A DNA stretch of 64,000 nt. It comes from Thermodesulfobacteriota bacterium. GTDB taxonomy: Bacteria > Desulfobacterota > Desulfobacteria > Desulfobacterales > C00003060. Positions 39,001 through 45,000 of this stretch are shown here, piece by piece. The stretch's first letter is position 1. Each line of letters opens with the position of its first letter. The stretch is taken from the NCBI GenBank assembly GCA_034189385.1, contig JAXHVD010000002.1:64001-128000 (forward strand). The letters run 5' to 3'. Made by a program: the position numbers.

Positions 39001-42000
39001 CGGAAGTTCATATGGAGGCTAGAGACTGCAGCATGTTGTCCCGGTGTGGTGGACCAAGAGAGGCATGTGGTGTCTTTGGGGTATTTGGGCATCACGATGC
39101 CGCCAAGCTGGCATATTTTGGGCTCTATGCCCTGCAGCACAGAGGGCAAGAGAGCGCTGGTATCGTCACCTCAACGGGGACGTCAATCCACGAACACAAG
39201 GGAATGGGGCTTGTACCTGAGGTCTTTAACGAACCAATCCTCAACAGCCTTCGCGGTGACATGGCCGTCGGGCACGTCAGGTATTCCACGACAGGGTCTT
39301 CTGTTTCAAAGAATGCGCAACCCTTTGTGGTCTCCCATGGTGGCATGACGTTAGCCATTGCCCACAACGGAAACCTGACCAATGCCAGAACAGTCAGAGA
39401 CGATCTGGAGAAAAGGGGGTCTATTTTTCAGACCACCATGGACAGCGAGATCATCGTCCACCTCCTGGCCCGAAACTTGCGGCATGGTCTAGAAGAGGCC
39501 TTGGTTGAGGCGGTTTCCCAAATTGAGGGGGCCTATTCATGCGTCTTGATGACGGAAGATAAGCTCATTGCCTTTAGGGACCCCAATGGCTTTCGGCCTC
39601 TCTGTCTCGGGAAACTCAACGGGGGGTATGTTGTAGCCTCTGAGACCTGTGCCCTCGACTTGATAGACGGCCGGTATCTGAGGGATATCGAGCCTGGTGA
39701 GATACTCGTCATTGACAAGGACGGCCTGAAGTCGATCAAGCCCTTCTCTCCACGTGAACCTACTTTTTGTATCTTCGAATTCATCTATTTTGCCAGACCT
39801 GACAGCAACATCTTTGGCCAGAATGTGTATACTGTAAGAAAGAGGTTGGGAGAGAAGCTGGCCCAAGAGTTTCCTGTTGAGGCTGATTTTGCCATGCCCT
39901 TCCCGGACTCTGGAAACTATGCCTCTATTGGCTTTTGTCATGGGTCGGGCATTCCCCTTGAGATGGGAGTCATTCGCAACCACTACGTAGGAAGGACCTT
40001 TATCGAGCCTGCCCAGTCCATGCGGGATTTTGGGGTCAAGGTGAAACTGAACCCCGTTCGAGAGATCCTCAAAGACAAACGTGTGGTGATTGTAGAGGAC
40101 TCCATTATACGGGGTACCACGAGCAAGATGCGGATCAAGACCCTGCGTGAAGCAGGGGCCAGGGAGGTTCATATGGTAGTGAGTTGTCCGCCCCACCGCT
40201 ATCCTTGTTATTATGGCATTGACTTCTCAACGAGGGGGGAACTGATTGCCGGCCAGCACGGGCTGGAAGAGGTGAAGAACTTCATCGGCCTGGACAGTCT
40301 ATGCTACTTGAGCCTGCCAGGAATGGTCGAGGCCACAGGACTTGAAAGAAACGGTTTTTGTTTGGCCTGCTTCGATGGCAAATATCCCATTCAGCCTGAA
40401 GAAGACATTTCAAAGCTGTGTCTGGAATGCCGCCAGTCTCAGGATGGTCGCCAACGGCTCGGCGTCTCATGAAAATAGTAGCCATTATACCCTGCAGGTA
40501 CGACTCAAAACGGTTTCAGGGCAAGCCATTGATGGCCATCCTTGGCAAACCGATGGTCCAGTGGGTATATGAGAGGGCTGAAAAGGCAGACATTATCACA
40601 GATGTGTTCGTCGCGACAGATGACGAGAGGATTTGTAGTTCCGTTCAGGGTTTTGGCGGACAGGTGTTGATGACTGCACCAGGTCACCGGTCTGGGTCCG
40701 ATCGAGTGGCGGAAGCGGCCGGCAGGCTTCACCTCAAGAAGGAGGATGTGGTCATCAATATCCAGGGCGATCAGCCGGCCTTCGACCCACAGTGCCTTTT
40801 GGAGATCGTCTCTCCCCTGAAAGAGAACCCTGGCCTTGACATGAGCACCTTGATTTGCAGGATAAAGGATGCCGATGAGGTCCAAGATCCCAATTGTGTC
40901 AAATGCGTGTTTGACAGCGAGGGATTTGCCCTCTATTTTTCCCGTTCTCCCATTCCCTTAAATAGGGATGAGTCAGCGCCCTGTGACGTCTATAAGCACT
41001 TGGGGATATATGCCTTTAGAAAACGTTTTCTGGACCGCTTTGCGATGCTTCCAAAAGGGGAGCTGGAGGAGATCGAAAAGCTCGAACAGCTTCGCGTGTT
41101 GGAACACGGCTATCGGATCAAGGTGGTGGAGACTGTTCATGATTCCAAGGCCGTTGACACGCCAGATGACATGAAAAAGCTGGAGGCGATTCTTGGGACA
41201 AAGGATGATTAGGCGGCTGGCCAGTCTTGCTGCCACTTGGCTGCAGAGGCTGACCAGGAGATAACATGGGCCTTAAAAGAATCAAAAGGTTCCTAGCGAG
41301 AAGAGGAATAACGGGCCTTTACTTTGGAAAGAGTCTGAAGACAGTCCCAGAAGGCTCGCTGGTTCTTTTTCCCTATGAGCCCGACGTGTTGAGCTGCGGG
41401 ATAACCGGTGTCCTGTCCTTTAAGGGAAGGCCTGCCGGAGCCCATGGGCTTCCCATTCAGGATCTCGAGGATAAGATAGAGGCCCTGTCCAAGGTTGCAG
41501 GGCAGAGGCTTGAAGAAAAAGGGCCCCTGCAAGAGAAAGATGATCTTGGCACAACAGAGCTCATAGGTGAGACAAAACACCTCTGCCAGAAGCTTAGGGA
41601 GCATCGGGTTTTCTACGAAGTCTTCTCCCGTCGAGCCTATCAAAAACGACTGACCGACCTCTGTGAGAAGCTTGAGGCGGTCGTGGAGTCTGAAGACATG
41701 GAACGGGCTCGGAGGATAGGACGCCTGGCCGCGGAAGAATGTGAGGCCCTCGCGCAACGAATAACGGAATTGCGGGACATTCTGTGGTCTTTACGGCACG
41801 AGATCATTGAGAACATTGAAAAGATAACTGCCCTTGGACGATTTGACCAGTATGACTGTGACCCCCTCTGTGTAGGGCTCCTGAAGGAGGTCAACATTAT
41901 ATTTAACAACCTTGATCGACTTGAAGTCAGAGGCAGGGATTCTGCCGGGCTCTCTCTCCTTTTCGTCATGGACGAGGCCGCGTTCACTGGGTTTCGACAA

Positions 42001-45000
42001 GCATTAAAAGAGGCATCACTGCTTGGTGAGTTTGAGGAAAGACAAGGGAACCCGGTCTTGTTGAATCGCAGCATCGTAACGAATAAGCAGGACACTGGTG
42101 TCTCTGTGATCTTTACCTACAAGGTTGCTGCCGAGGTAGGAAACCTGGGGGATAATGTCCGGTACTTGAGAAATCAGGTGAGAGATGATCTGGTGCTTCA
42201 GCACTGCATGCGGTGCAGTCATGTGTATCACAGTGCCGTGGCCCACACCCGTTGGGCCTCAGTCGGTGAAATCAGCGAGGCCAATTGCCATCCCGTTGAC
42301 AGCTGTCCCAGCGATTCGCCTAGGACCATTCACGTTTGCCTTAATGGAGATATTGATAACTACCAGAGTCTTCGGCAAGATCTTGAAAGAGAAACGGGCA
42401 AGTCTATTCCAGAAGAGATCACCACGGACACGAAGATTATCCCCCTTCAGATAGAGAAGTATCTCAACAAAGGGGAGACCCTTGAGGGATCTTTTCGCCT
42501 TGCTGTCAGCGATTTTGAGGGTTCCCATGCCATTGCGATGCATAGCGATCTGGCTCCGGGCCAGGTTTTTCTGGCGCAAAGAGGAAGCGGGCAGGCTATA
42601 TTTGTGGGTTTGGCGGAAGGTCATTATGTGCCTGCTTCTGAAATATATGGGTTGGTTGAAGAGACCTCTTGTTATGTGAAGATGGATGGCGAGAAAGTGG
42701 TGGAAGGGATATCTGGCAAGACCCAGGGTCAGATATTTGTCCTGGATGGGAATTCTGAAGGGGGGCTCAGTGGCCTGAGGGCCATGTATTATGACGGAAC
42801 GCCTGTTGAGCTTTCTGGGGATGACGTCAAAGAGACGGAAATCACGCCCAGAGATATTGATCGTCAGCATTATCCCCACTATTTCTTGAAGGAGGTCTCA
42901 GAATCCCCCCGGTCGGTGGAGCAGACCATTGAAGGGCGTGTGGCCATCTTAGAAGAAGGTGGGAGGCAACATCCCCAGATATTGCTGGACACCACAGTCA
43001 TTCCTGCTCATCTGGAAGCGGATTTCAGGGAACATAAGATCCGCAGGGTGTTTTTTATGGGCCAGGGCACAGCAGGGGTGGCCGCTTCGGCCTGTGCAGT
43101 GTTTTTGAGAGAGTACTTGAGCCGAACGGAGATTCGGGTGGCCTCCTTTAAGGCCTCTGAATTCAGTGCCTTTGTCTTGGAAGGTCGTCTTGATGACGCT
43201 CTGGTGGTGGCCATCACACAGTCGGGAACAACCACCGATACCAATCGGGCCATTGACATGGCCAGAGAACGGGGGGCCTGCACGTTGGCTATCGTGAACA
43301 GGCGAGATTCTGACATCACCTTTAAGGTGGATGGGGTGCTTTATACAAGTAGTGGGAGAGACATTGAAATGTCTGTAGCTTCCACCAAGGCTTACTATTC
43401 TCAGATTGTGGCGGGCAGCATCTTAGGTCTGAAACTAGGCCAATTGGCGGGGAGTTTGACGGAAGAGTTCATCCTGGCAGAGATAGAGCACCTTTGGAAG
43501 TTGCCTTCGTCTATGAGGAAAGTACTGGAAAGACATACGGACATCGGCGAGTCAGCCGAGAGATTTGCCGTTACAAAGACATATTGGGCTATTGTGGGTA
43601 GCGGTCCCAACAAGGTCTCTGCAGATGAGATCAGGATAAAGCTGAGTGAGCTTTGTTACAAGACCATTTCTTCAGACGTGGTTGAAGACAAGAAACACAT
43701 TGACCTGTCTTCCGAACCCCTGATTTTTGTCTGTGCAGCCGGCAACCGCGAGGATGTAGTCAGTGATATCGTCAAGGACACCGCGATCTTTAAGGCCCAC
43801 CAAGCAGTGCCCATAGTGGTGGCCACAGAAGGTGAACACCGATTTGATCCTTACGCCGATGCGGTAATCTCCGTGCCTGACACAGAGAGCCGGTTCGCGC
43901 CCATCATAAACACCTTGGCCGGTCACCTCTGGGGATACTATGCGGCCCTGGCGATTAACAAAGAATCTCGATATCTGGTGCATTTCCGTGAAGAGATTCG
44001 TGAACATATTCAGGCCTCTACGGGAAAGGGCCTGGATGTATACGAGATCGTGCTGGATGAAGGTTTCAGAGAGAAAGCGGCCGAGTTTTACGGGGTGTTC
44101 AAGGAGCGGATAAGGGAGAATCGTTACGCCACGGCCATGGCCATACGCACGGCATCGGACCTGACGCTGTTGCTGAAGTACCTGGCCGGAAGACTCCCTA
44201 TCTCAGATTTTGAGTTTGACTTTGGAACCAAAGGGACAGCACCGAATATGTTGAGGACCTTTTTTGAATGCATAGGAAAGATCGTCAACGAATTGGTGCG
44301 ACCTATTGATGCTATTAAGCACCAGGCCAAGACGGTCACCGTGGGAACAAGCCGGATCTCAGAGAAGGTAGAGGGCCTTCTTTTTAAAGCCCTTGAAAAT
44401 CAAGGGTTCAGCAAGAACCAAATTACAACAAGTAATGTCTTGGTCTTAAAGCGTCTACAGGAGGTTCTGAGCGAAATAGCAGGGACGACCCTCTACAAGG
44501 TAGCAGGGCTTAATATTTTGGGAGAGCCCGTTGCAGATTCGACCATACACCTGTTAAAGAAAGAGGGAAGTGCTGAGGCCCTTGTTTCCAGAGTTGAGAC
44601 CGACAACAGACTGCGGGGTACCAAACGGATCATCGTCAAGAACGGAAACATCTTTATTGGCAAGGGAAGAATGGACAACCGGAGTATTCTTGCCGTCCCA
44701 ATTATGTCAACGGGTACCAAGGTCGATCACCTCTTGTTGTTCAATGTAGCATTTAAGGCACAGGTTGAGCTTCAGAAGAAGGTAGATGCCTTAGGGGGCA
44801 AATATCACCACATACGAAACATTGTGGAGGAAACAAGTCTTGCCTGGAAGGATCAGTTTTTGGAATTACTTGATGTGGAGCAACTTTTTGGGATGTCTGC
44901 TGAGAAGATCTCAGAGGCGATTGTTTCCAGTTTGAATAACAGACAAGTATCGTAGCCGGGTTCCACCTATTGCAGGCCCATGTGTCAGAGCTGGGACAGT

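What a model noticed while it worked through the whole genome (the two positions that open the first line are those of the whole stretch)
41266..44955. Double-length GlmS whose catalytic cysteine is masked by a conserved N-terminal propeptide
The only glucosamine-6-phosphate synthase (g01513) is 1,229 aa, twice the usual size: its N-terminal-nucleophile Cys is residue 44 behind a conserved ~30-aa propeptide, a ~270-aa insertion splits the glutaminase domain and a 330-aa domain follows the isomerase part. This form is typical of Desulfobacterales and implies PurF-like self-cleavage.
Evidence so far: Only gene with GATase+SIS; GlmS models match 318-897 below cut-off. The extra C-terminal domain is in 34 of 36 order genomes, mostly in frames of ~1,170-1,290 aa. 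In 15 of 17 fetched N-termini the C-G motif was found; in all 15 it follows a conserved Y/F-F-G-K...I-V-F-F-P...L segment and never Met. Shine-Dalgarno precedes the long start.
(Added by a program. Inside this text positions count along the whole contig: contig position 64,001 is position 1 of the stretch shown here. "Call 12" and the like, gene names such as g00115 and contig names such as C1 are that model's own, and its searches are not shown. The text may have been shortened before it was handed on; [...] marks where a part breaks off. The agent that wrote the report below was given it as the finding of a first reader that could run no searches.)

Follow-up and report, generated by a model that had tools for sequence, protein, structure and literature searches.

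The report
Double-length GlmS with a removable leader
This gene encodes a double-length, unstudied form of the enzyme that makes the amino sugar for the bacterial cell wall; its catalytic cysteine sits behind a conserved leader peptide that probably has to be cut off, something not known for this enzyme.

Summary
The 1,229-aa ORF is real and is the genome's only GlmS. Across the order, the long form replaces canonical GlmS (109 against 3 of 121 genomes; none with two full-length forms). All glutaminase and isomerase catalytic residues are invariant in 112 of 112 leader-bearing relatives. The 43-aa leader is protein-coding: Pro at -8 in 100 of 100 loci, dN/dS 0.25, and no start codon next to the Cys. 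The Leu-start loophole is closed.

- Long forms with Met-Cys do exist (14 of 86 close loci; 28 of 39 distant proteins). They nest inside the leader clade, so the leader was gained once and lost repeatedly, all or nothing.
- G082 is a canonical GlmS.
- The '270-aa insertion' is two inserts.
- The '330-aa domain' is a 113-aa insert, the catalytic Lys tail and a 202-aa PAS/GAF-like domain.
- The leader lacks the acidic -2 residue found in all 30 PurF propeptides read from this order.

Removal of the leader is likely (about 0.8) and self-cleavage is the best guess (about 0.6); neither is shown. The scan has noted this family before on other genomes.

The parts
41256..41260 (+). Shine-Dalgarno-like AGGAG, 5 nt before the ATG
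   Evidence: sequence
41266..44955 (+). long-form glmS, 1,229 aa
41266..41307 (+). leader, variable part (residues 1-14): basic amphipathic helix
   Evidence: AF2 helix 2-12; hydrophobic moment 0.90 for residues 1-16; in 97 relatives net charge positive in 94, moment above own shuffles in 87
41314..41394 (+). leader, conserved core (residues 17-43): two predicted strands, with Pro36 eight residues before the Cys
   Evidence: Pro(-8) in 100/100 with all four codons, dN/dS 0.25; strands 17-20 and 31-34, pLDDT 75-80
41395..41397 (+). Cys44, the Ntn nucleophile (Cys1 of the mature enzyme); proposed cleavage site between 43 and 44
   Evidence: invariant in 112/112 leader forms and 57/57 Met-Cys forms; cleavage is inferred
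41425..41883 (+). insertion 1 (about residues 54-206), helical bundle between strand 1 and helix 1 of the glutaminase fold
   Evidence: absent from 3 canonical GlmS; all-helical in AF2; structural match to E. coli resumes at 204 = residue 10
41884..41988 (+). helix 1 and strand with R222/D225 (E. coli Arg26/Asp29)
41989..42222 (+). insertion 2 (about 50 extra residues, 242-283 and 311-319, around an aligned stretch)
42223..42870 (+). rest of the glutaminase domain: R329, W330, N360, G361, D388 (E. coli Arg73, Trp74, Asn98, Gly99, Asp123)
   Evidence: Z 24.8, rmsd 2.2 A over 230 residues to 1xff
42871..43962 (+). isomerase part, two SIS domains: Q652, S653, K792, E795, H811
43963..44301 (+). 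insertion 3 (900-1012, 113 aa), before the C-tail
   Evidence: not folded or fold-searched here
44302..44346 (+). GlmS C-tail with K1022, the Schiff-base lysine equivalent
   Evidence: residues 1021-1027 are identical to the last 7 residues of the canonical GlmS of G104; K1022 invariant in 112/112
44347..44952 (+). C-terminal extra domain (1028-1229): PAS/GAF/Cache-like alpha/beta part plus a small helical part
   Evidence: AF2 pLDDT 92.9; Z 5.5-6.3 to many GAF/PAS/Cache domains, none at Z 8 or more; no Pfam family for the window's domain
39012..40472 (+). purF with its own short acidic propeptide (internal control, not part of the finding)
40418..41212 (+). kdsB, upstream neighbour
45084..46766 (+). 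pyrG, downstream neighbour

Best explanation
The gene is this organism's glucosamine-6-phosphate synthase, made as a 1,229-aa proenzyme.

Shown: translation starts 43 codons before the catalytic Cys; the leader core is selected as protein and held at a fixed distance from the Cys; the whole catalytic set is intact.

Inferred: after the glutaminase domain folds, the leader core holds the 43-44 bond in the active site. The Cys44 thiol attacks that bond (N-to-S acyl shift, then hydrolysis) and frees the alpha-amine. The mature enzyme then works like E. coli GlmS: glutamine is hydrolysed at Cys44, and ammonia passes to fructose-6-phosphate bound through K1022. The leader is an activation gate and not part of catalysis, which is why lineages can drop it whole and return to Met-Cys. 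The PAS/GAF-like end domain, fused directly to the catalytic C-tail, is the likely site of allosteric control.
For: - Sole GlmS in G000. Long and canonical forms are mutually exclusive in the order sample: 109 long, 3 canonical. Recurrent neighbours are envelope and amino-sugar genes: kdsB, a PBP transpeptidase, a DegT aminotransferase, a NagB-like gene.
- C44, R222, D225, R329, W330, N360, G361, D388, K792, E795, H811 and K1022 are invariant in 112/112 leader forms.
- Leader is coding: dN/dS 0.25 in frame against 0.98 and 1.68 in the other two frames (26 disjoint pairs). The frame is open for at least 30 codons upstream of Cys in 69/69 loci, against 25/69 and 23/71 out of frame. 58 of 71 loci have no start codon anywhere in -1..-8.
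- Met-Cys long forms nest within the leader clade; monophyly of leader forms is rejected, p-AU 4.6e-6. No partial leaders among the 86 + 36 long-form loci read.
- Precedent in the same fold: GPRATase propeptides are cleaved autocatalytically (PMC7056826, passages); MEROPS C44 lists PurF and glutamate synthase precursors as self-processing (PMC5753285, passages). E. coli GlmS needs its Cys (PMC11822699, section 5).
Against: - No cleavage data of any kind.
- The junction is unlike the known self-cleaving type in the same cells: PurF has Glu/Asp at -2 in 30/30; GlmS has 0/100 acidic at -1..-3.
- The -1 residue is very free (Cys 33, Asn 29, Ser 13, Tyr 8, Phe 6, Pro 2 and others of 100). From memory, Cys, Asn and Pro at -1 disfavour the acyl shift in one intein; my search found no paper to check this.
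- No residue of the mature chain clearly tracks the leader: only 6 conserved columns change in 3 of 6 reverted lineages, mostly conservatively.
- In the AF2 model with the leader attached, residues 41-60 (pLDDT 54-59) and the loop 330-347 (<50) are uncertain, so it shows no scissile geometry.
- The E. coli Ser303 position is Ala in all long forms, one departure in the sugar site.
Confidence: 0.6

Rival explanations
1. The leader is removed by a separate host protease that reads the conserved core at a fixed distance from the cut. The basic amphipathic helix may bring the precursor to the membrane.
For: Fixed spacing of the Pro (100/100) with a free -1 residue fits a ruler-type recognition site; the junction is unlike PurF's. 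The variable part is basic (94/97) and amphipathic (87/97 above own shuffles; 29/97 at z>1.64).
Against: No peptidase among the 10 recurrent neighbour families that I annotated, out of 16 clusters listed for 86 loci with 1.5-3 kb flanks. The leader profile hits nothing else at E<0.05 in 10 genomes, apart from the glmS leaders of 2 controls, so a dedicated protease would have one substrate. Class II amidotransferases are known to process themselves.
Confidence: 0.18
2. The leader is never removed. It is a structural or membrane-anchoring extension, and the enzyme works with an internal Cys, or with free ammonia.
For: The leader is predicted as ordered (helix plus two strands, pLDDT 75-80). It is long and conserved for a disposable peptide. 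The commonest -1 residues are not obviously labile.
Against: The glutamine-binding and oxyanion residues are as invariant as in Met-Cys forms. The Ntn mechanism uses the free alpha-amine (established knowledge). Reversions land exactly on Met-Cys, never on a shorter extension.
Confidence: 0.12
3. The enzyme is a GlmS-like amidotransferase/isomerase for another sugar phosphate, or with another role.
For: Scores below the GlmS cut-offs; Ala at the Ser303 position; three inserts and an extra domain.
Against: It replaces canonical GlmS in 109 of 112 order genomes with any match. All other catalytic residues are kept.
Confidence: 0.06
4. The upstream segment is not translated (an internal start, or a conserved RNA element), and the protein begins at or just before Cys.
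For: In this genome GTG and TTG lie at -3 and -2.
Against: GTG/TTG is at -1 in 0 of 100 loci (ATG is excluded there by my grouping); a start codon is at -2 in 4 of 72; third codon positions vary freely (entropy 1.73 bits against 0.94 at second positions); dN/dS 0.25. No Rfam match in 30000-50000. A start at -2 would still leave Ser before Cys.
Confidence: 0.03

Closest known systems
Bacterial GlmS, glucosamine-6-phosphate synthase (E. coli; EC 2.6.1.16; PDB 1xff, 1jxa, 2j6h, 3ooj, 4amv; TIGR01135)
   Same: Glutaminase fold (Z 24.8, rmsd 2.2 A, 230 residues), two SIS domains, C-tail lysine, all main catalytic residues, housekeeping role in the genome.
   Different: Twice the length; a 40-60 aa leader before Cys instead of Met-Cys; three inserts (about 150, 50 and 113 aa); the chain runs 202 aa past the normal C-terminus; Ala at the Ser303 position; below family cut-offs.
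Propeptide-bearing PurF / GPRATase (B. subtilis type; MEROPS C44), including the purF two genes upstream
   Same: Ntn amidotransferase whose catalytic Cys follows a translated N-terminal segment.
   Different: PurF propeptides of this order are mostly about 10 aa with Pro-basic-acidic at -4..-2. The GlmS leader is 4-6 times longer, hydrophobic at -2, never acidic near the junction, and has a two-strand core and an amphipathic helix.
Glutamate synthase large-subunit precursor (MEROPS C44)
   Same: Self-processing class II amidotransferase precursor (PMC5753285, passage); leader length of a few tens of residues (recalled).
   Different: Different synthase module. Its junction was not compared here.
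PAS/GAF/Cache sensor domains; the N-terminal segment of the large 180-kDa glutamate dehydrogenase (7jsr)
   Same: Residues 1030-1166 take this arrangement (Z 5.5-6.3, rmsd 3.5-5 A). 7jsr is the top Foldseek row over the whole domain (E 1.1e-3, TM 0.50).
   Different: No match reaches Z 8 or E 0.001; identity 7-17%; no Pfam hit; ligand unknown.

Membership tests
GlmS (glutamine-fructose-6-phosphate transaminase) | class II glutaminase domain with Cys1, Arg26, Asp29, Arg73, Trp74, Asn98, Gly99, Asp123 | tested here: met
   C44, R222, D225, R329, W330, N360, G361, D388 invariant in 112/112; fold Z 24.8
GlmS | two SIS domains with Lys485, Glu488, His504 and the C-tail lysine | tested here: met
   K792, E795, H811, K1022 invariant; C-tail matched to canonical GlmS of the same order. 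The role of each residue and the E. coli numbering of these four are recalled.
GlmS | Ser303 of the sugar-phosphate loop | tested here: not met
   Ala603 in all 169 long forms aligned; a minor feature, its role recalled
GlmS (TIGR01135 / NF001484 models) | score above the curated cut-off | tested here: not met
   250 against 418 and 269 against 381 bits; the inserts break the match
GlmS | Cys directly after the initiator Met | tested here: not met
   Cys is residue 44; met in 14 of 86 close long-form relatives
GlmS | makes glucosamine-6-phosphate from glutamine and fructose-6-phosphate | not testable with these tools
   indirect only: replaces canonical GlmS
Self-processing class II amidotransferase precursors (PurF type, MEROPS C44) | translated segment before the catalytic Cys | tested here: met
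Self-processing class II amidotransferase precursors (PurF type) | short propeptide with acidic residue at -2, as in this order's PurF | tested here: not met
   30/30 in PurF against 0/100 here
Self-processing class II amidotransferase precursors | autocatalytic cleavage dependent on the Cys | not testable with these tools
   needs protein work
PAS/GAF/Cache sensor domains (residues 1028-1166) | fold and family profile | tested here: inconclusive
   Z up to 6.3, many tied rows; best Foldseek E 1.1e-3; no GAF/PAS Pfam hit in 83 members

The most novel reading that the evidence does not exclude
The leader is a maturation switch of a new type, not a passive propeptide. A basic amphipathic helix tethers the precursor to the membrane, and a two-strand core with a fixed Pro ruler lets the cut happen only on a signal (membrane contact, a ligand of the PAS/GAF-like end domain, or a host protease). 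A whole bacterial order would then control entry into cell-wall synthesis by zymogen activation plus a built-in sensor, instead of by the ribozyme or small-RNA circuits known elsewhere.
Probability: 0.2. Interest if true: 0.8.

Novelty: new variant of a known kind. Interest (0 to 1): 0.55.

Why it matters
GlmS is the textbook Ntn enzyme that needs only Met removal. A proenzyme form that is the sole GlmS of most sampled Desulfobacterales, and of a second group in the phylum, would add GlmS to the self-processing amidotransferases with a junction unlike PurF's. Natural leader and Met-Cys pairs of close relatives give ready controls for how an enzyme gains and loses a propeptide. A sensor-like domain fused to the catalytic C-tail points to an undescribed way of regulating cell-wall precursor supply. 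In practice these genes fall below annotation cut-offs and are often named only 'SIS domain-containing protein'. The chemistry is probably ordinary and the cleavage is unproven, which caps the score.

Tried and rejected
- Complex prediction of the leader (1-43) as a separate chain with residues 44-535 gave no answer (score 0.00 in two runs, controls not folded). It says nothing either way.
- RNA: one metatranscriptome run, kept as contigs, with 0.11 of the words. It covers 8 of 30 bins, none over the leader, and shows no joints. Uninformative.
- The leader profile found no solved structure at E<=10. Atlas look-alikes scored 0.85 or less for residues 1-60 and 0.79 or less for the end domain; leads only.
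- Leader as a separate small gene: 10 short hits, 9 running on into the start of the mature chain and 1 breaking off just after the Pro; they look like truncated or frameshifted genes. It was not found elsewhere in 8 Met-Cys genomes, while 2 controls were detected.
- Search for docking residues by comparing leader and reverted forms: no clear set.
- No firm named fold for the end domain. Insertion 1 matches only generic three-helix bundles (Z 10-11). Insertion 3 was not folded.
- Conserved RNA element: no Rfam hit.
- Literature: searches listed no paper on a long-form or propeptide-bearing GlmS (listings only). Most subscription journals are not in the library, and no supplements were read. 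The 1999 mutational study of B. subtilis PurF processing was not held.
- Lipoprotein signal peptide and intein readings were dropped by inspection: no hydrophobic core or small -1 residue, and no intein motifs.
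Full report
OBSERVATION. The frame 41266-44955 (+) encodes 1,229 aa from an ATG with AGGAG five bases upstream; the first Cys-Gly is residue 44. It lies in a same-strand run carA, guaA, carB, purF, kdsB, this gene, pyrG. Pfam finds a class II amidotransferase part (323-459) and a SIS domain (591-720). The GlmS models match 318-897 below their cut-offs, and the best solved relatives are E. coli GlmS. It is the only GlmS-like gene in the 90% complete genome.

ANATOMY, CORRECTED. I aligned six long forms with three canonical GlmS from the same order. The extra stretches are 54-197 and 199-206, 242-283 and 311-319, two short ones (475-486, 495-510), 900-1012 and 1028-1229. 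So the glutaminase domain carries two inserts with the Arg26/Asp29 segment between them (R222, D225), not one of 270 aa. The AlphaFold model of 1-535 (mean pLDDT 83) superposes on the E. coli glutaminase domain at Z 24.8, rmsd 2.2 A over 230 residues, from model residue 204 = E. coli 10. Insertion 1 is a helical bundle. The supposed 330-aa tail domain contains the normal GlmS C-tail: residues 1021-1027 equal the last seven residues of the canonical GlmS of G104. The true add-on is 1028-1229. It folds confidently (pLDDT 92.9), and its first 135 residues resemble PAS, GAF and Cache domains at Z 5.5-6.3, none at 8 or more. Foldseek's best row is the large glutamate dehydrogenase 7jsr at E 1.1e-3. 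This is a likeness of arrangement, not a family assignment.

DISTRIBUTION. In 121 genomes of the order, 112 have a GlmS match at E<=1e-45. Three are canonical (G007, G082, G104) and 109 are below the cut-off; the latter match the query at about 43-72% identity, mostly over its whole length. No genome has both full forms, though G104 also holds a short fragment like residues 939-989. The record titles of the nearest loci name Desulfobacterales. A profile of the end domain finds 38 of 401 genomes of the phylum, 26 of them outside the order. Among 50% clusters it finds 266 proteins; of the best 150, 39 are over 1,000 aa and all align to the query along most of their length. Two distant Met-Cys clusters carry taxon names, a Planctomycete and an Acidimicrobiaceae member.

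IS THE LEADER TRANSLATED? Of 100 loci, 91 showed the Cys-Gly motif. Seven of the rest begin at a contig or locus edge and two have broken frames that I did not follow. Five duplicates were dropped, leaving 86. Fourteen are Met-Cys with a ribosome-binding site; 72 are not. In those 72, the -2 codon is a start codon only 4 times, 58 of 71 have no start codon in -1..-8, and the frame is open for at least 30 codons in 69 of 69 measurable loci, against about a third in the other frames. Forty more loci gave 29 leader forms, 7 Met-Cys long forms (2 of them repeats of earlier loci), 3 canonical genes and 1 that my pattern missed. In the pooled 100 leader loci, Pro(-8) is invariant with all four codons, Phe(-9) is in 95 and Gly(-23) in 85. 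dN/dS over -26..-1 is 0.25 in frame against 0.98 and 1.68 out of frame (26 disjoint pairs at 70% or more identity). The group was defined by lacking ATG at -1, so only the absence of GTG/TTG there (0 of 100) is a finding. My chosen starts give leaders of mostly 43-60 aa. The variable front part is basic in 94 of 97 and amphipathic beyond its own shuffles in 87 of 97, strongly so in 29. Among the 11 distant leader proteins, 9 keep Pro(-8) and 2 differ in spacing. The leader is real protein.

IS THE SITE ACTIVE? Twelve catalytic positions are invariant in 112 of 112 leader forms, 19 of 19 nested Met-Cys forms and 37-38 of 38 distant Met-Cys forms; the last set includes 10 near-copies from cluster look-ups. 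The one departure is Ala603 at the E. coli Ser303 position, shared by all long forms. E. coli GlmS cannot work without its Cys (PMC11822699, section 5). That the free alpha-amine is also needed is established knowledge of Ntn enzymes, not tested here.

HISTORY. Trees were built on the mature chains only. FastTree on 117 rows puts all 72 leader forms in one 86-row branch (support 100) that also holds 14 Met-Cys rows at about six places; the distant Met-Cys forms lie outside. IQ-TREE on 25 rows, chosen after seeing that tree, forces at least four label changes on starred branches and rejects leader monophyly (p-AU 4.6e-6, LG+G4). The simple reading is one gain and three or more losses. The root rests on long branches, and independent gains of the same motif are not formally excluded. 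Each loss lands exactly on Met-Cys, and the leader is not found elsewhere in eight such genomes. The mature enzyme therefore does not need the leader, and a partial leader seems not to be tolerated. This is what a removable gate predicts.

MECHANISM. Self-processing is known for PurF and glutamate synthase precursors (PMC7056826 and PMC5753285, passages; PMC9140057, passages, says generally that the Cys is preceded by a few residues cleaved autocatalytically). I tested the likeness. Of 33 purF loci, 30 were read: they have Glu/Asp at -2 in 30 and Pro at -4 in 29. The GlmS leader has no acidic residue at -1..-3 in 100 loci and a free -1 position dominated by Cys and Asn. So it may work like a PurF propeptide, but it is not one by sequence. 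I put removal at about 0.8: self-cleavage 0.6, a host protease 0.18. A retained leader gets 0.12. No peptidase appeared among the 10 neighbour families that I annotated. The model shows an ordered leader (helix 2-12, strands 17-20 and 31-34) but an uncertain junction and active-site loop, and it gives no contacts.

NOVELTY. Ten literature searches listed nothing on a long-form or propeptide-bearing GlmS, in a library without most subscription journals; supplements were not read. The scan itself has described this family on other genomes: look-alikes in 31 windows of 30 genomes, 8 notes shown. I had reached my reading before that call. Those notes are unchecked and add no weight.

VERDICT. A real, intact, order-wide variant of GlmS with a translated and selected leader in front of an intact Ntn site. 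It is a new variant of a known kind. Interest 0.55; 0.8 if the leader proves to be a regulated activation switch.

Noticed in passing
window 32646-46766 (+): carA, guaA, carB, purF, kdsB, long glmS and pyrG stand in one run: five glutamine-dependent amidotransferase systems side by side. kdsB and pyrG recur beside glmS in 20 and about 22 of 86 loci.
   Followed up: partly
window 46961-47536 (-): 191-aa ORF with a signal-peptide-like front and a C-terminal run of short Cys/Thr/Gly repeats; no NCBIfam hit. It lies beside two large membrane proteins (47875-50502 and 50492-52954), one with a weak GldG-like hit. It could be a modified-peptide precursor with its machinery.
   Followed up: no
G030:C21:40940-44584; proteins P0126 and P0127: One long GlmS lies in a 1,948-aa open frame, and two proteins run about 280 aa past the end domain: possible further fusions.
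   Followed up: no
L171-L204 (purF loci): PurF propeptides of this order share Pro-basic-acidic at -4..-2.
   Followed up: yes
G000:C63:138710-140044 (L176): A second purF-like gene below the family cut-off, with a short propeptide acidic at -2.
   Followed up: no
G085, G117: Two long-form matches each; G117 is 8% contaminated and one G085 copy is shorter.
   Followed up: no
G040, G061, G120: Three genomes 94-97% complete with no GlmS match of either kind in these searches: assembly gap or another route to glucosamine.
   Followed up: no
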